From Legionellales bacterium (lineage in GTDB: Bacteria; Pseudomonadota; Gammaproteobacteria; UBA1113), in contig JABEVJ010000261.1 of NCBI GenBank assembly GCA_013043985.1, forward strand, positions 1 to 34,278: 34,278 bases of DNA, given 5' to 3'. The position numbers and the translations under genes are program-made. The notes beneath the pieces are model-generated. The model was not told where the DNA came from. It worked only from the letters and a program-made list of their open reading frames with translations, and searched no databases. Shown piece after piece: positions 3,410-30,047 of the stretch (position 1 is the stretch's first letter; each line of letters starts with the position of its first letter).

Positions 3410-5179
3410 TTAGCCTGGAATAAAGCCGTTCTTCTGTTTTTGCCACAACTCGGTAAAATGCCCTTTTTTATCGAGCAGAGCTTGCATCGAGCCATCTTCG
3501 ATGATTTTTCCCTGCGAAAACACAAGAATCCTGTCCATATTCGCGAGCGTGGAAAGCCGATGGGCAATTACAATGGCAGTGGCGTCTTGCATGATGTGTT
3601 TTAAACTGTGTTGAATATTTTCCTCAGTCACTGAGTCCAAAGCAGCAGTGGCCTCGTCCAAAATCAGAATCGGTGCTTTTTTCAGAATAGCGCGGGCAAT
3701 AGCAATACGCTGACGCTGTCCGCCCGAGAGTTTGATTCCTCGCTCGCCCACCAAGGTATGATAATGTTGGGGGAGCGCACTGATGAATTCGTGACATTCG
3801 GCACGTTTTGAAGCCTCAATAACTTCTTCATCTGTTGCTGTCAGTTTACCGTAGCGAATATTTTCCATGAGTGAGCGGTGAAACAACATGGATTCCTGCG
3901 GGATCATAGCGATGGATTGTCGAAGCGAACCCTGAGTAACCTCAGCAATATTTTGACCATCAATATAAATTGATCCTGCTTGTAAATCATAAAAACGAAG
4001 CAGTAATTGAATAAAGGTAGTTTTTCCCGCACCGGAAAAGCCCACCAGCCCGATTTTTTCACCCGCTTTAATGCGCAGACTCAATCTTTGAAATAAGGGG
4101 CGTTCGGCATCGTAACCAAAAGTAATCCGGTCAAGCACAATCTCTGGCGTCTTAATAACCAAGGGAGGGGCATTTGGCGCGTCGAGAATATCGTGCCCTT
4201 CCAATAATTCCGAAAGCGCATTTTGTATTTTGCCGATTTCTCTCACACACTGACCAAATTGAAAGGCGCACCACCACACATACATGAGGGCACTGAAGGT
4301 TAACATCCCAACCAAAGTAAAATCACCCACCGTGATGTTTTTATGCTGCCAAGAGATTAATAAACCGCCAAACATCGCAATTAAGGCGATAATCGTGCTG
4401 ATGTCCTGAATCAAACGCACTTTTTCGAGTGAAAAAGCCGCATCCCACGCGCGCCTTTGCTCTATCATCTGATATTGATTCAAATAGTTTAATTCGTGAT
4501 TCATACTCGAAAAAATACGAATGGTTAAAATATTGTTGATGGCATCGGTAATCTTACCGCTTAACCGTGAGGTACTGTCAGCATGTTTCTCAGCAAAATG
4601 ATTGACTTTTTTCAAACTGAACAAGGTAATTGAAAAGTGTACAATGACCCACACGGCTAAAATACTGCTAAATAAAGGACTGGCCAAACTCAATAAAATA
4701 AAGACGTTCACTAAAAAAACGCCAGTAGAAATAAAATTGTAGATAAACATTTCAGAAATCATCTGGGCACCGCTGGCTAAATCGGCCACCTTACTTGCGA
4801 GGCTGCCTGAAAAGCGATCGCTGAAAAATTGATGGGAATGATGCCCCAGATATTGAAAGACATTTTCCCGAATGGTTGCGCGGAGCTTGGCAAAGCCCTT
4901 TCCAGCCAGCGCACCTTGAAAGCGAAGAGCAGTTGCCGTGAAAATCCAGCAACCTAACCATAGCAAAAGCGGCACGGAAAACGTGCGCCACAAATGCGGA
5001 ATCGGTGGTTTTAATGTGCTCATGCGATCAATGAACAGTTTGATAAAAAAAGGGTAAATCGTTTCATTGATCGCCCAAATCACGGCAACACTGGCCATCA
5101 GCACAAAAAACCAAGGCTGTTTTTTAGTGAAAAATGCCAGAAATGAAAGCGGTTTGCTGGGTAAGGACGGTGTTGGCAT
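3410..5179 (-). CDS. ABC exporter, fused permease and ATPase (MsbA/multidrug type)
   Basis: Six-TM N-terminal half. Walker A GFSGAGKTT, signature LSGGQRQRIAIARA, Walker B ILILDEATAALD. Confidence 0.9.
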   Translation of the reverse strand: MPTPSLPSKPLSFLAFFTKKQPWFFVLMASVAVIWAINETIYPFFIKLFIDRMSTLKPPIPHLWRTFSVPLLLWLGCWIFTATALRFQGALAGKGFAKLRATIRENVFQYLGHHSHQFFSDRFSGSLASKVADLASGAQMISEMFIYNFISTGVFLVNVFILLSLASPLFSSILAVWVIVHFSITLFSLKKVNHFAEKHADSTSRLSGKITDAINNILTIRIFSSMNHELNYLNQYQMIEQRRAWDAAFSLEKVRLIQDISTIIALIAMFGGLLISWQHKNITVGDFTLVGMLTFSALMYVWWCAFQFGQCVREIGKIQNALSELLEGHDILDAPNAPPLVIKTPEIVLDRITFGYDAERPLFQRLSLRIKAGEKIGLVGFSGAGKTTFIQLLLRFYDLQAGSIYIDGQNIAEVTQGSLRQSIAMIPQESMLFHRSLMENIRYGKLTATDEEVIEASKRAECHEFISALPQHYHTLVGERGIKLSGGQRQRIAIARAILKKAPILILDEATAALDSVTEENIQHSLKHIMQDATAIVIAHRLSTLANMDRILVFSQGKIIEDGSMQALLDKKGHFTELWQKQKNGFIPG

Positions 5180-5338
5180 GAGCGTTATTCGTATGAAGGT
5201 TAAAGACTTATTTTAGCATAATAAAAAAACAGCAACAATTCGGGTTACGTATTTCGTCAAAAAATAAAACAGACTATTGACAATACTCGAAAGAAGCTCC
5301 ACGCTTGTCCCTGTCAGCAAAAACGTACAGGGGGAAAG

Positions 5339-5799
5339 TTGCCAAATCATATTGAACATTATTATCAGATGGAAGATTTTTTCTTTAGTTTGATGAGCAA
5401 GCAACGACTTAACTTTGATGAGGGTTGCGCCTATGTGACGGGTGTGCAGGCAGAAAACTTGAATCCGCTGATGTTAAGGAACGGGGTGACACCTCGTCTT
5501 GGAGCAAGCTATCACCACACGAACATTTGTGCCACTTTAGCCTCTATATTGACAAAATTCCGGTAGCATCGCTGACCTTATCTATTGCAAATGGTTTAGC
5601 TCGCATTGATGATGTGGGAACATTGCCCGCCTATCAACGGCGAGGGTACGCGACGGACTTAATCCGCCATGCATTAACGCTTGCCTATCGGTTAGGCATA
5701 ACACATTGTTTTCTGGAGGCAAGCTTAAGTGGTCAAGTCGTCTATGAAAAAATAGGGTTTAACACGTTGTTTACCAGTGAAATTTATGTCAAAACCTGA
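5339..5799 (+). pseudogene. GNAT acetyltransferase interrupted by a single-nucleotide frameshift
   Basis: The N-terminal part is in the frame of ORF 5339..5566. The GNAT core (LPAYQRRGYATDLIRHAL...YEKIGF) is in the frame of ORF 5425..5799. The two frames overlap around 5470-5520, near a GGGG run at 5482-5485. Confidence 0.55.
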
Positions 5800-5849
5800 A
5801 ATAAAACGCTACGGGTAGCGATATGATTGTTTTAAGGAGGATCAAAACC

Positions 5850-6179
5850 ATGTTTGCTGTTATTTACAGAGGATTCATTTTACCAGAGCATGAGCAGGCC
5901 TATCGCCAAGCATGGAGGGAAATTGCTGATTATTTTGTTCAACATGCAGGGGCACTTGGCTCCACATTACATAAAACGCCAGCCGGAGAATACATTGCGT
6001 ATTCACGCTGGCCAGATAAAGCAACCCGTGATCGTTATTGGGATGAGCAAGGCAATTTGCAGACAGTAGCAGGATTAAATGAGACCATTGCCACGTTAAA
6101 AATGGCGATTGATCGCAATAAACCCTATGATGAAATTGCGATGGAAGTCGTGGATGAAACCGAGAAGAAAATACCCTAA
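5850..6179 (+). CDS. Antibiotic-biosynthesis-monooxygenase (ABM) domain protein
   Basis: MFAVIYRGFILPEHEQAYRQAWREIADYF...YSRW is typical of small ABM/ferredoxin-like-fold proteins. A strong RBS aaggagg lies 9 nt upstream of the ATG at 5850. Confidence 0.6.
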   Translation: MFAVIYRGFILPEHEQAYRQAWREIADYFVQHAGALGSTLHKTPAGEYIAYSRWPDKATRDRYWDEQGNLQTVAGLNETIATLKMAIDRNKPYDEIAMEVVDETEKKIP

Positions 6180-6233
6180 TATTTTAGGATATTTTAAATG
6201 AAACAAAGAAGATGAATAAAGGGGGAAAAATTA

Positions 6234-6788
6234 ATGAGCGAATATCAATATTATGAATTTTGTCGGATTGGCAGCCCGCTTTCTGCTGAAGCTCGGAAAA
6301 CAATGCAGTCACTTTCCAGTAGAGCAAAAGTCAGCACCCATGGTGCCTCTTATACCTATAATTATGGTGATTTTCGCGGCAAGCCTGCAGAGTTGGTTTT
6401 AAACTATTTTGATGTATTTTTTTATATCAGTAATTTTGGCACTCTTCGGCTGATATTTAAATACCCTGAAAATCAAATTACTGAAGAAGAGATAGAAAAA
6501 TACAGGATTAAACACGTCATCCACTATCAAAAGCATGAGCAGTATGGATTGCTGACTATTGATATTAATAATGAAGAGGGTTTTGGATGGACAGAGGGGG
6601 AAGGATTGCTGGCCGATTTATTGCCACTTTATGATGAAATAAAAGATAACCATTACCATTTTTTACAAGTCGTTTCGGCTGTTCATGATCATTTTATGGG
6701 AGAAAATTCAAACACACTAAGCAATTTACTGACCAAAAACACTTTATCATCAGCAGAAAAAACTTTTGTGGCATGTGTTGGTCTTTAA
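6234..6788 (+). CDS. Hypothetical protein
   Basis: Clean 184-aa ORF with RBS aggggga. I recognise no motif with confidence. Confidence 0.5.
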   Translation: MSEYQYYEFCRIGSPLSAEARKTMQSLSSRAKVSTHGASYTYNYGDFRGKPAELVLNYFDVFFYISNFGTLRLIFKYPENQITEEEIEKYRIKHVIHYQKHEQYGLLTIDINNEEGFGWTEGEGLLADLLPLYDEIKDNHYHFLQVVSAVHDHFMGENSNTLSNLLTKNTLSSAEKTFVACVGL

Positions 6789-6797
6789 TGAAAATCG

Positions 6798-7634
6798 ATG
6801 ACAACTAATACTTACAGTCATGAAATGCAGCAACAACTCAAAGAAAGCCTCGAATTATTGAAAATGATTTTAGGATCGGATCTTTTGGGTGTTTATCTTT
6901 ATGGTTCATCTCTTGTAGGCGGACTGCAAAAATACAGCGACATTGACTTATTCGTTGTTGTCAAACGCGCGACAACCCCAGAGGAAAAAACCAGATTAAT
7001 TGCTCATCTTCTTCCAATCTCGGGTATTTACATGAAAAGTTCAAAGCGGTCTATTGAAATGACCTTTGTTGAGAAGTCAGCGATTAATCCTTGGCATTAT
7101 CCTCCACACTGTGATTTTCAATATGGTGAGTGGTTACGCCAATCTTTTGAGAAAGGCATGCTTGACCTAGGGATGACTCATGAGATGCCAGATCTAGCGA
7201 TCATTGTTACTCAAATTTTATTAAAGTGTCAAATTCTACAGGGATTAGAGCCTGAGCAATTATTGGCGGATGTCCCCTATCATGATTTTACAAAAGCCAT
7301 GCATCATGATTTAAATAGACTGGTCACCGATCTTGAGCATGATACTCGAAATGTCCTGCTGACTTACGCACGAATTTGGAGTACCTTAGAAACCAATGCG
7401 ATAAGATCTAAACCTGTCGCAGCAGACTGGGTAATGTCTCATTTGCCTAAAGTGTATCAACCCGTGATGAAGCGAGCTAAATCAATCTGTATCGGTGTAG
7501 AAAATGAATATTGGGGTGATATCCAAGAGCTTGTAAAACCGTGTGCGGATTTTATGGCCAATAAAATCAATGAACAGTTTGCATTGATAAACGTTGATGA
7601 TCTTAATCAGGTTATAAAACTTGCCGAGCGGTAA
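6798..7634 (+). CDS. Aminoglycoside nucleotidyltransferase, aadA/ANT(3'')/ANT(9)-like
   Basis: N-terminal NTase motif LLGVYLYGSSLVGGLQKYSDIDLFVVV. C-terminal DUF4111-like helix region (LLTYARIWSTLETNAIRSKPVAADWV). The distance from the start to the motif matches AadA. Confidence 0.8.
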   Translation: MTTNTYSHEMQQQLKESLELLKMILGSDLLGVYLYGSSLVGGLQKYSDIDLFVVVKRATTPEEKTRLIAHLLPISGIYMKSSKRSIEMTFVEKSAINPWHYPPHCDFQYGEWLRQSFEKGMLDLGMTHEMPDLAIIVTQILLKCQILQGLEPEQLLADVPYHDFTKAMHHDLNRLVTDLEHDTRNVLLTYARIWSTLETNAIRSKPVAADWVMSHLPKVYQPVMKRAKSICIGVENEYWGDIQELVKPCADFMANKINEQFALINVDDLNQVIKLAER

Positions 7635-7656
7635 TTTTCGGTAGAGGGGTATTTTA

Positions 7657-8925
7657 ATGAAAATTAAGAAAACGATTCATGATGTCATCAATGGCTTGCT
7701 GCCAACCATGGAACCTAACGGTACTCTGCTTGTCGCTCTCAATGAGGAAATCATTTATAAACAATGTTTTGGTTTTGCCGATATGGCAAATAAAACACTT
7801 GTCACTTTCGATACTCAATTCCTGGCAGGTTCAGTGACCAAACAGTTTACGGCAGCAGCCATTCTAAAAGCATTGCTTGATATCAGCTTACAAAACGGAA
7901 TAGATAAAAATGATCTTGCCAATTTAAAAAACAACATCCAAGCCAAGTTAGCTCATGCTGTAGCTCATTATTTGCCACAGGAACATCCTCTCTGGGATGG
8001 TTTGATGCCATCATGGGCGAAGCGGGTGACTTTACACCAGCTATTAATACATTCATCCGGCATATCCAATTATACAGGGTTGCCCGATTTTGAAAACAAA
8101 GCGTTTCCCAAACCTTCTGATTTGGTTGATTTTTTTAAAACACATGATTTGGAGTTTAATTCAGGAGAAAAATTTTCGTACAGTAATTCAGGCTATTTTT
8201 TATTGGGAATAATTGCACAACAAATAACGCATCAGCCGCTGGAAAGTTATTTGCAAACTCAATTTTTTGCACCATTCAACATGCACGCCAGTTTTTTGGC
8301 CACGCAACATACCGCTAAAGAATTGAAACAGACCGACTCTCGCGCCGCAAACTTAGCCTGTGGCTATCAATTCGACATGACGAAACCACAGGCAAACTTA
8401 ATTGAGGTGAAAAACTCTATATCGATGCAAATCCCGGGAGCTGCGGGCAGTCTTGTGTCGACTGCTTCGGACTTACTTAAATGGAATAATGCGTTATATA
8501 CTGGAAAAATTATTCCACTATTTTTGCTTGATTTGATGCTGAAACCGCATATACAGACAGAACAAAAGAATGCCTATTATGGATATGGTATAGAGGTTTT
8601 GAAATCCGGTTCTTTTGGAGAGTATTATACGCACAGAGGAGGCATACCGGGTTTTCATTCAAAATTGACTTTCATTCCATCTTTACAGTTATCCATGATT
8701 GTTCTGGAAAATCTCCATGAAGACAAGAGCCGTTTGATGCCAGAGATAGAAAGGATGAGAGCGGCATTGCCAACGACATTGACTGAAAGTGAAAAATGGC
8801 AGGAAGTTGACAAAATGATAGCGGGTAAATATCCCAGTATCATTGAAAACAGGCAGCGGTATGAGCTTATGCTGGTGGAGGAAGCCATTATAGAGGCATT
8901 GTCAGTATTCGAAAACCGTATTTAA
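7657..8925 (+). CDS. Serine hydrolase of the beta-lactamase (class C/esterase) family
   Basis: SxxK motif SVTK and YxN motif YSN (YSNSGY). Length is 422 aa. Confidence 0.75.
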   Translation: MKIKKTIHDVINGLLPTMEPNGTLLVALNEEIIYKQCFGFADMANKTLVTFDTQFLAGSVTKQFTAAAILKALLDISLQNGIDKNDLANLKNNIQAKLAHAVAHYLPQEHPLWDGLMPSWAKRVTLHQLLIHSSGISNYTGLPDFENKAFPKPSDLVDFFKTHDLEFNSGEKFSYSNSGYFLLGIIAQQITHQPLESYLQTQFFAPFNMHASFLATQHTAKELKQTDSRAANLACGYQFDMTKPQANLIEVKNSISMQIPGAAGSLVSTASDLLKWNNALYTGKIIPLFLLDLMLKPHIQTEQKNAYYGYGIEVLKSGSFGEYYTHRGGIPGFHSKLTFIPSLQLSMIVLENLHEDKSRLMPEIERMRAALPTTLTESEKWQEVDKMIAGKYPSIIENRQRYELMLVEEAIIEALSVFENRI

Positions 8926-26927: not shown

Positions 26928-27821
26928 CTAACCACAATAAATTTTGACGATCGCGACACGCGAATGCCCAAGCTCTTCCGATACCATCCGGCGAACAACA
27001 AAATCAATCTGTTTTTGTTGCTCATTCATGGCGTTGGCTGGCATGCCCCCGTTTCGAGGGCACTCCCACCCTTCGGTATTGGATAAATTGGCCGTTAAAG
27101 TCCGGTAACGCTCTTGAGCGTAGGCATGGCGAAGACCGTGTAAATTGCGGTAACCCGAAAGCCGGACTTGTCCAATATAGATGATTTCCTGCTCGCGGTA
27201 GGATTTTTCCGGTGGGATCAAAGAGGCACCCTTGGGTAAGATTTGTTTTAGTTCATCTAAAAAAGCCCGCTGCGCTTCGGTGGTAATGGGGATGGCGCGG
27301 GGAATGCCGCCTTTTGTCCATGAGCCTTTCAACACAAGTTTACTGCCTTTGTCGGCCTCGGTGACAATAAATTTCAAGCTTTCCTCACGGCGTAACCCAA
27401 AAAGTTGTTGCAGTCTGACAGAATGCCGAATCAGGGAGTCAGAGAATCGCGCAAAGTCGATATCTCTAATGGCTTTGTTGTTTTCCGACAGGTATTGTCT
27501 CGGAGCCAGTCCCATCTCGGTATTGGGTGGCACGACCAGCGGATTGCGGATAGCTCTTGCGATAAAGCGCAATTGACTCACCCTGTTTTTAATCGTGGCG
27601 GGGTTGAGATGCTCTTCTTGCCACCGCGCAACCAAGTATTTAACGTGCCGTTGTTTAATGTGATGAATACGGGAGAGCTGATAGCCCGCTTCATGCAGCT
27701 GGGTAATGAACAAACGCGCATTATCTGCGTAATCATGTCTTGATTTGAAAGACAGCCCTTCAACGTCCTTAAACAGCTTATGAATGCTGTAATGCGCATC
27801 CTTTAGAAAACGCCTTGACAT
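26928..27821 (-). CDS. Tyrosine recombinase (small phage-integrase-family protein) with catalytic residues present
   Basis: FGLRREESLK (Arg I), WTKGG (Lys), HGLRHAYAQERY (His-x-x-Arg), LGHSRVAIVKIYCG (His and the Tyr nucleophile). Confidence 0.8.
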   Translation of the reverse strand: MSRRFLKDAHYSIHKLFKDVEGLSFKSRHDYADNARLFITQLHEAGYQLSRIHHIKQRHVKYLVARWQEEHLNPATIKNRVSQLRFIARAIRNPLVVPPNTEMGLAPRQYLSENNKAIRDIDFARFSDSLIRHSVRLQQLFGLRREESLKFIVTEADKGSKLVLKGSWTKGGIPRAIPITTEAQRAFLDELKQILPKGASLIPPEKSYREQEIIYIGQVRLSGYRNLHGLRHAYAQERYRTLTANLSNTEGWECPRNGGMPANAMNEQQKQIDFVVRRMVSEELGHSRVAIVKIYCG

Positions 27822-28639
27822 GTCAATATTTCCTTGATTTTACGGTTGTCGGCGTAGCCCATCTCCTCACGAAGCTGTTTGAGTACGGCCAGTTGGGTTG
27901 TCTTCGCAGAAGACTGACTGAGAGAGACATACCGCTCATGTAAGTAAATGTGCCGAAAATATTCTTTTTGTTGTACGCCCTGTTGTTTGAATGCGTTGGT
28001 ATGAAGCGAGGATAACAACATCAGATTGCCGCCATAGCTGGCACGAAATCCGGTGATAGGTAAGGATTTCAAATCGTGGATAAGGGCTTGCTGCGCCTCA
28101 TTCCAATAGGGAACGGTGCGGTTATGGCTGTTATAGGCCGCTTCCCGCGAAAGGCGGAGTTCGGTGTCTGCCAGCATAAACGGCTCAAAACGGATAGCTT
28201 CCTGTTTTTTAAGACCAAAGCAGACTTGTAACCGACAAACCAGCTGAACATCGGTGTCTCGGATGGATTGAATATTCATGCCTTGTTTAGCCACCGCGAT
28301 AACCGCTTTTTCATACTGAATACCCAGGGTCGGGTTATCGGGGAAAGGGATAGAATCAACATAGGCCACTATGACGCTGCGTAGGATACTGATTTTGCGA
28401 CAAACGGTATTGGATGTGTTGCCTCTTGATTGCCATAACTGAACCAGTTTTTTAAGAACAGGCGTCCGAATTTCTTTTAAACGCGGCACAAGCGAATTTA
28501 GCGCCATTAAATCATCCGGCAGGGAAAAGAGTACTTTTTCCCGCTCACGCCGAAAGCAGGGCGAGCCGCCCGCCATGGATGATAAAGCTTGCTGAATATC
28601 GGTTTTTAACAGGCTTAAACGATTAGACATGTTTTTCAA
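27803..28639 (-). CDS. Paralogue of the downstream tyrosine recombinase with a degenerate active site
   Basis: It aligns with the neighbour, but the equivalent positions read FGLKKQEAIRF (Arg to Lys), YNSHN (Lys lost), EYFRHIYLHERY (first His to Glu) and MGYADNRKIKEILTCQGVF (His to Tyr, no aligned Tyr). It overlaps the downstream gene by 19 nt. Confidence 0.65.
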   Translation of the reverse strand: MKNMSNRLSLLKTDIQQALSSMAGGSPCFRREREKVLFSLPDDLMALNSLVPRLKEIRTPVLKKLVQLWQSRGNTSNTVCRKISILRSVIVAYVDSIPFPDNPTLGIQYEKAVIAVAKQGMNIQSIRDTDVQLVCRLQVCFGLKKQEAIRFEPFMLADTELRLSREAAYNSHNRTVPYWNEAQQALIHDLKSLPITGFRASYGGNLMLLSSLHTNAFKQQGVQQKEYFRHIYLHERYVSLSQSSAKTTQLAVLKQLREEMGYADNRKIKEILTCQGVF

Positions 28640-28872
28640 TCAACATCATGGAAATAACCGGACTGACACCCTGCGAACTGGTTTAGTGTTAGTTGAGCGT
28701 TCCTCGGTTTCACTACGTCCGAGGGTACATGCCTTACGGCATTCGAGGCTCATTAGAGAAGGGGCGTTTCTTAGTCGGTTAATCGGTTCATGATGTCATG
28801 CTCCTGGTCGGTTAATTAATGATAATAACGGGTTAAAAAATAACCGTTCATTGATGGCTTAATCAGCATTCG

Positions 28873-29112
28873 TTAGTCTCGATACAGCTCAATCATGTCT
28901 TGGGTCACTTTCTCGATACTTTCAGGGGTAATTAAAACGTTAATCATCTTTCGAATGGACGGAATCATGTCGGTTTTTTCACGAATACGTTGCTGCGCGT
29001 GTCGTAATAGCTGAAATGACGGTTCGCTTAATAAAAAGGTCGTTTCCTGAGGGGTTTCGGGTAACGCATTGTCGGGTTTTACTATTGCCGTGTGGCGGGT
29101 TTCTTTTTTCAT
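28873..29112 (-). CDS. Small ribbon-helix-helix-like DNA-binding protein (79 aa)
   Basis: TTFLLSEPSFQLLRHAQQRIREK...SIRKMINVLI fits a beta-strand/helix/helix RHH layout. GGAG lies 10 nt upstream of the ATG. Short direct repeats flank it on both sides. Confidence 0.5.
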   Translation of the reverse strand: MKKETRHTAIVKPDNALPETPQETTFLLSEPSFQLLRHAQQRIREKTDMIPSIRKMINVLITPESIEKVTQDMIELYRD

Positions 29113-29128
29113 TGAATCAATACTCCAA

Positions 29129-29223
29129 GTCGTTGTTTACTCTATTCATTTAACAGCGTGCAACTGTCGTTTATGTCGTTTATCGCAAATCATTTATCAA
29201 TGGTCGTTTACTCTCCTCGTTTG
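29129..29223. repeat. GTCGTTTA(Y) direct repeats upstream of the RHH gene
   Basis: gtcgttgtttac at 29129, tandem gtcgtttat/gtcgtttat at 29166-29183, gtcgtttac at 29203-29211, tcgtttg at 29217-29223. Related gtcggttaat lies at 28774-28783 and 28807-28816, downstream of the gene. Confidence 0.65.
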
Positions 29224-29886: not shown

Positions 29887-30047
29887 TCCGAGTCGTCACT
29901 GCAAACGGCTTGCAGTGACGACTCGGATACAGTGGTCAGCGAGCTGCCCGCGATGTGCTGCCAAAGCGGTTAAAAAAATCTTTTTAAACCGCTTTGGCAG
30001 CAGAGCAAGGCAGGGCAAAAAATGAGGCAGAGCCTCCCTGCCCTGCC
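29887..30047. other. Cluster of three strong hairpins / inverted repeats
   Basis: IR1 is an 18-bp perfect stem (29887-29904 with 29910-29927). IR2 spans 29957-30001 (gctgccaaagcggtt.aaaaa with tttttaaaccgctttggcagc, one bulge). IR3 is ggcagggca at 30009-30017 with tgccctgcc at 30039-30047, and has a nested gaggc-aga-gcctc at 30024-30036. Confidence 0.8.

What the first reader, a model, noticed from the sequence alone, without database searches (positions are those of the whole stretch)
26928..29112. RHH protein, catalytically degenerate tyrosine-recombinase paralogue and intact tyrosine recombinase in one operon
Genes 27803..28639 and 26928..27821 are paralogues and overlap by 19 nt. The downstream gene keeps the canonical R-K-H-R-H-Y residues. 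In the upstream gene my alignment shows the following substitutions:
- Arg I is replaced by Lys (GLKKQEA).
- The beta-hairpin Lys is lost.
- The first His is replaced by Glu.
- The last His is replaced by Tyr.
- No Tyr aligns with the nucleophile.

An inactive paralogue translationally coupled to an active one suggests an obligate heteromer, with one architectural or DNA-targeting subunit and one catalytic subunit. This differs from XerC/XerD, where both subunits are active. The RHH gene upstream, bracketed by short repeats, could act as the regulator or directionality factor. The system could be a multimer-resolution or site-specific integration module of a little-studied type.
Basis: partly seen in the sequence, partly recalled or inferred. 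Interest (0 to 1): 0.62.

Follow-up and report, generated by a model that had tools for sequence, protein, structure and literature searches.

The report
Dead-plus-live recombinase-like relaxase module with RNA

Summary
Every sequence claim was confirmed. The genes 27803..28639 and 26928..27821 are paralogues that overlap by 19 nt. The downstream protein keeps R-K-H-R-H-Y. The upstream one has lost all of these except Arg II. The dead copy is not a one-off: it founds a coherent family of about 270-aa proteins.

- **Pairing.** In 9/9 analysed loci and 45/45 Legionella pairs, the dead gene overlaps a live gene immediately downstream.
- **RNA.** A structured RNA lies 20-40 nt before the dead gene. 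It is the orphan Rfam motif RAGATH-13: relatives score 84 bits against a threshold of 80, and the window copy is divergent.
- **Hairpin.** A conserved hairpin with the core GTCACT..AGTGAC lies upstream, at 29887-29927 in the window.
- **Leading-region genes.** Genes such as ssb and ardA or a methylase lie downstream.

The live protein belongs to Pfam PF12835. The literature uses this family as the signature of SGI1 MpsA, a tyrosine-recombinase-like relaxase whose module also holds an oriT with inverted repeats and an essential small RNA.

My best reading is a MOB_M-type mobilization module in which the dead paralogue is an accessory subunit and RAGATH-13 is the RNA component.

The parts
29887..29927 (-). 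Hairpin HP1 (CCGAGTCGTCACTGCAA-gccg-TTGCAGTGACGACTCGG) with the conserved core GTCACTGCA..TGCAGTGAC. It is the candidate oriT or recognition hairpin of the module.
   Evidence: Read directly. The same core (CTGCGTCACTGC-loop-GCAGTGACGCAG) lies 400-900 nt upstream of the RNA in about 60 Legionella loci. It also lies upstream of the gene in 11 of 11 orientable loci that have only a live gene. About 0.01 chance matches are expected per locus (my estimate).
29961..30047 (-). Two further long GC-rich inverted repeats, at 30010-30047 and 29961-30003, just upstream of HP1. Together with HP1 they form a three-hairpin cluster.
   Evidence: Sequence; terminator-like stems. Legionella loci likewise carry three hairpins, HP1 to HP3. 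The SGI1 oriT has three inverted repeats (PMC6414798). No function was tested here.
29132..29210 (-). Four direct TAAAC(G/A)AC repeats immediately upstream of the small gene. They are a candidate operator or promoter region.
   Evidence: They are kept in the 80%-identical relative L001.
28873..29112 (-). Small 79-aa protein, putatively DNA-binding. RHH-like by eye but unproven. It is an optional member of the module.
   Evidence: ORF. Homologues sit at the same place in L001, L003, L016 and nine Legionella loci. No family hit. AlphaFold2 pLDDT 69.
28663..28772 (-). Structured RNA, a divergent RAGATH-13 (Rfam RF02688). It has an outer stem P1, an inner stem P2 (GAGC/GCUC), hairpins P3 and P4, and the invariant single strand AACACUAAAC. 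It ends about 30 nt before the ATG of the dead gene.
   Evidence: Rfam scores 22.1 bits here against a threshold of 80, but 84.2 and 83.8 bits at the same place in L015 and L003. My own covariance models link them all. Covariation: 93.9% of cells paired, 157 compensatory cells, 0/500 shuffles as high. There are compensatory changes against L001.
27803..28639 (-). Catalytically degenerate paralogue with a two-domain tyrosine-recombinase fold. The six catalytic positions read K-Y-E-R-Y-I. The likely true start is the ATG at 28630.
26928..27821 (-). Intact PF12834 + PF12835 protein with R144, K170, H228, R231, H286 and Y295. It is a candidate MpsA-type (MOB_M) tyrosine-recombinase-like relaxase.
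   Evidence: Pfam gives 43.3 bits (cut-off 22) and 29.9 bits (cut-off 23). There are 4849 relatives. The literature link is PMC10484663, PMC9299015.
20981..24162 (-). Leading-region-like genes on the same strand further downstream: an unknown 260-aa protein, an Eco57I-type orphan methylase and ssb.
   Evidence: Pfam. In the Legionella locus L066 the equivalent genes are ssb and ardA. On pPC1000_1 the equivalent is ssb.

Best explanation
The locus is the DNA-processing (mobilization) module of a Legionella-type plasmid or island. It belongs to the class whose nicking enzyme is a tyrosine-recombinase-like relaxase (MOB_M; SGI1 MpsA is the closest characterised case).

The proposed parts, in order on the minus strand, are:
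- a cluster of hairpins led by the conserved GTCACT..AGTGAC hairpin (candidate oriT);
- an optional small DNA-binding protein with its own operator repeats;
- the RAGATH-13 RNA;
- the dead paralogue;
- the live enzyme.

**Proposed mechanism (inferred).** The live protein cuts one strand at or near the hairpin with Tyr295. The dead paralogue keeps the DNA-binding and subunit-contact surfaces of the fold but cannot cut. It occupies the second half-site or recruits the live subunit, a role comparable to that of the small SAM-like protein MpsB in SGI1. The RNA is made as the leader of the dead gene's message. It acts like the essential sgm-sRNA of SGI1, either as a component of the complex or as a control on it.

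Elements that keep only the hairpins, the RNA and the dead gene would be mobilized by a live enzyme supplied in trans.

**Shown here:** paralogy, degeneracy, the fold, gene coupling, RNA structure and linkage, hairpin linkage and gene context.

**Inferred:** relaxase activity, heteromer formation, and any RNA-protein contact.
For: **Family.** The live protein passes the curated cut-offs of PF12834 and PF12835 and has no PF00589 hit. PF12835 is the 'INT_DTR_like' signature chosen for the relaxase MpsA (PMC10484663). The catalytic spacing matches the residues reported for MpsA: R162/H247/R250/H251/Y319 there (PMC9299015), against R144/H228/R231/H232/Y295 here.

**Layout.** mobSGI1 reads oriT with three inverted repeats, then the essential sRNA, then mpsA, then mpsB, all in one direction (PMC6414798, PMC9299015). 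Here the order is three hairpins, RNA, dead gene, live gene.

**Hairpin.** The GTCACT..AGTGAC hairpin lies upstream of the gene across the whole family, whether paired or solo.

**Conjugation context.**
- Homologues on 8-15 kb Acinetobacter and Psychrobacter plasmids are followed by a small ORF and a type IV coupling protein, with no other relaxase annotated.
- In Legionella the pair is followed by ssb and ardA. In the window it is followed by a methylase and ssb.
- No conventional relaxase was found among the ORFs of the contig that I scanned.

**Partnership.** All 7 full-length dead genes in 400 class genomes, and those in all 4 positive genomes among 21 of the order, have a live gene next to them. 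The genes overlap in 45/45 pairs.

**RNA linkage.**
- The covariance model hits only upstream of dead genes. It found none in about 27 loci that hold only a live gene.
- It gave 5 hits in 400 genomes, all at dead genes.
- About 72 of 80 pattern-selected loci have a dead gene directly after the RNA.

**Recent transfer.** Identical dead proteins occur in different Legionella species.
Against: - No direct alignment to MpsA, MobK or TcpM could be made, and no SGI1 sequence was at hand. The link rests on a Pfam signature and on papers.
- MpsA-type relaxase activity has itself been shown mainly by genetics.
- The live protein has every canonical recombinase residue, so ordinary site-specific recombination is not excluded.
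- The accessory protein differs from SGI1 in both form and gene order. Here it is a full-length dead paralogue upstream; in SGI1 it is a 98-aa domain downstream.
- Homology between RAGATH-13 and sgm-sRNA is untested.
- In solo elements the shared sequence begins exactly at the hairpin. That would also fit an attachment site.
- The contig carries no coupling protein or mating-pore genes.
- Two genomes with solo elements have no live gene at all.
Confidence: 0.55

Rival explanations
1. The pair is a true site-specific recombinase acting as a heterotetramer of two live and two dead subunits. Such a complex could exchange only one pair of strands, leaving a Holliday junction for replication or host enzymes to finish. 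XerC acts this way at cer/psi and at CTX-phage sites, and IntI acts this way on folded attC. The conserved hairpin would be a folded single-strand site.
For: - The live copy has the full R-K-H-R-H-Y set.
- The dead copy keeps the whole fold. Its best PDB match is IntI bound to folded attC.
- The hairpin has a conserved stem base and a free loop length of 4-20 nt, as expected of a folded single strand.
- Homology between solo elements starts within 0-5 nt of the hairpin.
- Several copies occur per Legionella genome, at different places.
Against: - No second hairpin copy occurs at the other end of the 4-kb solo elements.
- The family is linked with coupling-protein genes and leading-region genes.
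- PF12835 is the MpsA signature (PMC10484663).
- This model gives the RNA no role.
- Solo elements have no live subunit.
Confidence: 0.25
2. The dead paralogue is chiefly a regulator. It would be a recombinase-fold repressor, like the master repressors of SPbeta-type phages (SroF of phi3T appears among the fold matches). It would bind the inverted repeats or its own leader, and RAGATH-13 would be a cis-acting leader that sets translation of the operon. The live gene would be merely co-regulated.
For: - Phi3T SroF, a repressor, appears among the fold matches (ranks 25, 27, 34).
- The RNA ends a tight 20-39 nt before the ATG in nearly all of 66 loci, 23-24 nt in 30 of them.
- The solo clade keeps the dead gene and the RNA under selection without a live gene.
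Against: - Stop-start overlap with the live gene is universal where both exist. That fits fixed stoichiometry better than regulation.
- In SGI1 the sRNA does not act by controlling mpsAB expression (PMC9299015, Discussion).
- The RNA has a large invariant single-stranded core and a probable pseudoknot. That is more than a simple operator needs.
Confidence: 0.15

Closest known systems
mobSGI1, the mobilization module of Salmonella Genomic Island 1 (oriT, sgm-sRNA, mpsA, mpsB)
   Same: - A PF12835-type tyrosine-recombinase-like protein with the RHRHY residues acts as the presumed relaxase.
- An oriT with three inverted repeats lies upstream of the gene.
- An RNA is encoded between the oriT and the first gene, in the same direction. 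In SGI1 this RNA is essential.
- A second, non-catalytic recombinase-derived protein is made from the same operon.

Sources: PMC6414798, PMC9299015, PMC10484663.
   Different: - Here the accessory protein is a full-length (about 270 aa) dead paralogue encoded upstream and overlapping the live gene. In SGI1 it is a 98-aa SAM-like domain encoded downstream.
- Here the RNA is the roughly 100-nt RAGATH-13 motif. The sgm-sRNA core is about 280 nt. Homology between the two was not tested.
- The live protein here also has the N-terminal PF12834 domain.
- The hosts are Legionellaceae and related uncultured Gammaproteobacteria.
MobK of pIGRK and TcpM of pCW3 (MOB_M relaxases)
   Same: They are tyrosine-recombinase-like proteins that nick an oriT lying upstream of their own gene. 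MobK needs its catalytic tyrosine (PMC8152469). Such proteins are often annotated as integrases (bioRxiv 10.64898/2026.01.13.699239).
   Different: The authors report the three proteins as unrelated to each other in sequence (PMC9299015). No dead paralogue and no RNA have been described for either. MobK forms homodimers.
RAGATH-13 RNA motif (Rfam RF02688)
   Same: The copies in L015 and on the Legionella plasmid pPC1000_1 pass the family's gathering score. The window copy shares P1, P2, two hairpins and the AACACUAAAC strand.
   Different: The window's clade has a longer P4 with a conserved UAGUGA loop and scores only 22 bits. No paper in the searchable library mentions RAGATH-13. Its link to this gene pair is, as far as I could find, undescribed.
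XerC/XerD
   Same: Two paralogous tyrosine recombinases act as a heterotetramer. At some sites only one partner cuts.
   Different: Both Xer proteins keep all their catalytic residues. The NCBIfam XerC model scores 15 bits against a cut-off of 335. The two xer genes are not translationally coupled, and no RNA is involved.

Membership tests
Tyrosine recombinase superfamily (live protein 26928..27821) | Catalytic residues Arg I, Lys, His I, Arg II, His/Trp II and the Tyr nucleophile, in that order | tested here: met
   R144, K170, H228, R231, H286 and Y295 are invariant in 31 relatives and in all 41 live-type rows of the joint alignment.
Tyrosine recombinase superfamily (dead protein 27803..28639) | Two-domain recombinase fold | tested here: met
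   AlphaFold2 pLDDT 95.4. Foldseek matches IntI, Tn1549 Int and lambda Int with probability 1.00 and E down to 2e-6.
Tyrosine recombinase superfamily (dead protein 27803..28639) | Catalytic residues present | tested here: not met
   The six positions read K, Y, E, R, Y, I. Among about 120 family members:
- Arg I is T or K in 110.
- Lys is never kept.
- Arg II is kept in 113.
- A Tyr aligns with the nucleophile in only 17.
Pfam PF12834 + PF12835 (Phage_int_SAM_2 / Integrase_1) | Score above the curated cut-off | tested here: met
   The live protein scores 43.3 against 22 and 29.9 against 23. The dead protein scores 21.1 against 22 on PF12834, just below the cut-off, and has no PF12835 hit.
MOB_M / MpsA-type relaxase module | The protein is a sequence relative of MpsA (AAK02039.1) | not testable with these tools
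   No MpsA sequence was available. There is indirect support: PF12835 is used as the MpsA signature (PMC10484663), and the residue spacing is nearly the same (PMC9299015).
MOB_M / MpsA-type relaxase module | An oriT with inverted repeats upstream of the relaxase gene | tested here: inconclusive
   A conserved hairpin cluster is present upstream in the window and in relatives. No transfer or nicking data exist.
MOB_M / MpsA-type relaxase module | Association with conjugation genes | tested here: met
   A type IV coupling protein follows the gene in the same operon on Moraxellaceae plasmids. ssb/ardA or ssb/methylase lie downstream.
MOB_M / MpsA-type relaxase module | A small SAM-like accessory protein (MpsB) downstream of the relaxase gene | tested here: not met
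   A full-length dead paralogue lies upstream instead. Downstream of the live gene there is an unrelated 170-aa ORF on the other strand.
RAGATH-13 (Rfam RF02688) | Score at or above the gathering threshold of 80 bits | tested here: not met
   The window copy scores 22.1 bits. Copies at the same place in L015 and L003 score 84.2 and 83.8 bits. My own models R1 and R2 join the window type and the Rfam type in one alignment with strong covariation. I file the window copy as a divergent relative, not as a scored member.
Ribbon-helix-helix (CopG/Arc/MetJ) proteins | Profile match, or a beta-alpha-alpha fold in a dimer | tested here: inconclusive
   No Pfam or NCBIfam match at E<=1. There are no PDB relatives. 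The monomer model has pLDDT 69 and shows helices only. The sequence pattern fits RHH by eye.
XerC/XerD | Equivalog model score | tested here: not met
   TIGR02224 scores 15.3 bits against a cut-off of 335.

The most novel reading that the evidence does not exclude
RAGATH-13 is not a mere leader but an RNA subunit of the complex. In this reading the dead paralogue has been retooled to hold the RNA, and the ribonucleoprotein licenses or aims the cut made by the live tyrosine-recombinase-like enzyme, which may be encoded nearby or supplied in trans. 'RNA plus recombinase-like relaxase' would then be a general design shared with the sgm-sRNA of SGI1. The orphan RNA would gain a function, and a new kind of RNA-dependent DNA-transfer initiation would be defined.
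Probability: 0.25. Interest if true: 0.85.

Novelty: new variant of a known kind. Interest (0 to 1): 0.68.

Why it matters
Tyrosine-recombinase-like relaxases (MOB_M) have only three studied examples. A 2026 preprint claims they are the commonest relaxases on chromosomes and are routinely misannotated as integrases. SGI1, an important carrier of drug resistance, needs an unexplained small RNA for transfer.

This locus shows that a large, separate branch of the same protein family, in Legionellaceae and related bacteria, always carries three things:
- a catalytically dead full-length paralogue;
- a strongly structured RNA already catalogued as an orphan (RAGATH-13);
- a conserved hairpin.

That gives RAGATH-13 a defined genetic partner. 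It suggests that an RNA component may be general to these modules. It also offers small, testable units, including 4-kb elements that keep only the hairpin, the RNA and the dead protein. Finally, 'integrase' pairs like this one should not be read as integration or resolution systems by default.

Tried and rejected
- **Close DNA relatives in plasmids.** A megablast of the locus found none.
- **PDB sequence searches.** The live protein, its profile and the small protein's profile gave nothing useful.
- **The search for related loci.** With the single live protein it found no relative. I used the genome search and a DNA pattern scan instead.
- **Rfam around loci that hold only a live gene.** There was no ribozyme or other family, only one chance group II intron piece. 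The RNA is therefore specific to the dead paralogue.
- **A second copy of AACACTAAAC in the window**, as a possible DNA target of the RNA. There was none above chance.
- **Promoter scan.** It was uninformative: 5 sites against 5.1 expected.
- **tRNA genes next to the solo elements**, as possible attachment sites. There were none adjacent.
- **Circularity of the contig.** There is no terminal overlap.
- **Heterodimer prediction.** No multimer tool was available.
- **First structure job for the small protein.** I repeated it with permitted rows.
- **XerC/D-like resolution system.** I considered this and rejected it.
Full report
**The observation**

On the minus strand the window holds three ORFs:
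- a 79-aa ORF at 28873..29112;
- a 278-aa ORF at 27803..28639, or 275 aa from the ATG at 28630, which homologues and the database call favour;
- a 297-aa ORF at 26928..27821.

The last two overlap by 19 nt. They are paralogues, with 24% identity and E = 3e-12.

The downstream protein passes the curated cut-offs of Pfam PF12834 and PF12835. It has thousands of relatives. In these relatives R144, K170, H228, R231, H286 and Y295 are invariant. Arg II is retained.

AlphaFold2 gives the dead protein a confident two-domain model (pLDDT 95.4). Its best solved relatives are tyrosine recombinases.

**The dead copy is a family**

A search of 1.84 billion representative proteins gave 202 hits. About 120 of the aligned ones, 260-285 aa long, share the degenerate signature:
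- FGL[K/T]xxEA in place of FGLRREE;
- Y, H or F in place of the Lys;
- a variable residue in place of His I;
- Arg II kept in 113;
- Y, I, L or F in place of His II.

On a tree the dead proteins are separated from the live outgroup by a long, fully supported branch. This fits one old duplication.

**Pairing**
- In the window's order, all 4 genomes out of 21 that carry a dead gene have a live gene directly after it.
- In 400 genomes sampled across the class, all 7 full-length dead genes do so. About 30 genomes carry live genes alone.
- In nine diverse loci the stop and start overlap by 8-22 nt. In 45 of 45 Legionella pairs the overlap is 8-32 nt.
- The small upstream gene is present in only 4 of those 9 loci and about 9 of 80 Legionella loci.
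- Its RHH fold could not be confirmed. It does have four TAAACRAC repeats in front of it.

The 233-nt gap before the dead gene shows compensatory changes against an 80%-identical relative. All nine loci share one architecture:
- an outer stem;
- an inner GAGC/GCUC stem;
- two hairpins;
- an invariant AACACUAAAC strand.

Rfam matches the window copy weakly to RAGATH-13, at 22 bits against a threshold of 80. The copies at the same place in L015 and on the Legionella plasmid pPC1000_1 pass the threshold, at 84.2 and 83.8 bits.

I built covariance models of my own to test the linkage:
- They hit only in front of dead genes and found nothing in about 27 loci that hold a live gene alone.
- In 400 genomes they gave five hits, all directly upstream of a dead gene.

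A pattern scan of 185,579 species genomes gave 114 stretches, nearly all in Legionellaceae and often several per genome. In about 72 of the 80 loci fetched, a dead gene follows at once.

On 86 copies, 93.9% of cells pair, 157 cells show compensatory change, and no shuffle reaches this. The P4 loop can also pair with the 3' joining strand, with matching changes between copies (by eye). The RNA ends 20-39 nt before the ATG in nearly all of 66 loci. No paper in the searchable library mentions RAGATH-13.

**A conserved hairpin and the gene context**

About 450-500 nt upstream of the RNA, about 60 Legionella loci carry the hairpin CTGCGTCACTGC-loop-GCAGTGACGCAG. Two more conserved hairpins often follow it. 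The window has the same core at 29887-29927, with two more long inverted repeats beside it. The core GTCACT..AGTGAC also lies upstream of the gene in 11 of 11 orientable loci that hold only a live gene. The hairpin therefore belongs to the whole PF12835 family.

Downstream of the pair lie:
- ssb and ardA in L066;
- ssb on pPC1000_1;
- a methylase and ssb in the window.

On small Acinetobacter and Psychrobacter plasmids the live homologue is followed by a small ORF and a type IV coupling protein. No conventional relaxase, coupling protein or pore gene was found among the contig's ORFs that I scanned.

**What is known**
- mobSGI1 consists of an oriT with three inverted repeats, an essential small RNA encoded between oriT and mpsA, mpsA, and mpsB, a 98-aa SAM-like domain (PMC6414798, PMC9299015).
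- The catalytic residues reported for MpsA (R162, H247, R250, H251, Y319) have nearly the same spacing as R144, H228, R231, H232, Y295 here.
- MobK and TcpM are the other studied cases (PMC8152469).
- A 2026 preprint calls the class MOB_M. It finds it very common on chromosomes and often annotated as integrase (10.64898/2026.01.13.699239).

**Interpretation**

The best reading (0.55) is a MOB_M-type mobilization module. The hairpin cluster would be the oriT, the live protein the nicking enzyme, the dead paralogue a non-cutting accessory subunit, and RAGATH-13 the counterpart of sgm-sRNA.

A monophyletic Legionella subclade, nested inside the paired clade, keeps the hairpins, the RNA and the dead gene but no live gene. 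It sits beside an AlpA-like gene and a DUF927 helicase gene in an element of about 4 kb. Two such genomes have no live gene anywhere. This argues against an obligate heteromer. It fits elements that borrow a relaxase in trans. It also shows that the tightest bond is between the RNA and the dead protein.

The rivals are a half-active site-specific recombinase acting on a folded hairpin (0.25) and a recombinase-fold regulator with a cis-acting leader (0.15). The three readings are not fully exclusive.

**Limits**
- No MpsA or SGI1 sequence could be aligned.
- No multimer prediction was possible.
- All functional steps are inferred.

Noticed in passing
L059 (Legionella qingyii) 3815-7811; also L057, L101, L074, L075, L088, L090, L080, L112, L106, L108, L070: An element of about 4 kb is shared by many Legionella species at different places. 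It consists of the terminal hairpin, RAGATH-13 and the dead paralogue, then a convergent DUF927 helicase gene and an HTH_17 (AlpA-like) gene. No live recombinase gene is present. The right end carries five or more TGTCCC repeats.
   Followed up: partly
window 28790-28800; same place in L007, L008, L017, L003, L015, L016, L024: A purine-rich AGGAG(G/A)A box lies 5-70 nt upstream of the RNA's outer stem in all nine diverse loci. No consistent small ORF follows it, and its role is unknown.
   Followed up: no
alignment A10 (86 RNA copies): The P4 loop (for example UCUUUG or UUUUG) is complementary to the strand just before the 3' half of P1 (CAAAGA or CAAAA), with matching changes between copies. 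This is a probable pseudoknot that the Rfam structure does not include. In the window type, UAGUG in the loop could pair with CACUA.
   Followed up: partly
L001 2616-3287: In the closest relative, a 6.3-kb metagenome contig, the live gene is cut short at 223 aa (91% identical over 75% of the length), while the dead gene, the RNA and the small gene are intact. The live genes of L058, L094 and L113 are likewise split by frameshifts.
   Followed up: no
L001 87-123 (-): An abiF RNA (Rfam RF03085) scores 53.5 bits against a threshold of 37 on the relative's contig.
   Followed up: no
L066, L097, L102; L078, L087: Identical dead-paralogue proteins occur in different Legionella species: fairfieldensis, rubrilucens and jamestowniensis in one set, santicrucis and brunensis in another. 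This points to very recent transfer between species.
   Followed up: no
L008 321-945 (reverse-complement coordinates): A gene pair that looks like HicA/HicB (judged by eye from the sequence, no profile run) sits where other loci have the small 79-aa gene.
   Followed up: no
window 1-20400: The rest of the contig is dense with GNAT acetyltransferases, APH and AadA-like enzymes, a class C beta-lactamase-family protein, an MFS pump and a DUF3987 helicase. This looks like cargo of a Legionella-type plasmid or island.
   Followed up: no
L048 about 4936 and 5102 (550 and 384 nt before the RNA at 5486): Two copies of the HP1 hairpin lie in tandem upstream of an RNA copy that has no dead or live gene after it. 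This may be a decayed or composite element.
   Followed up: no
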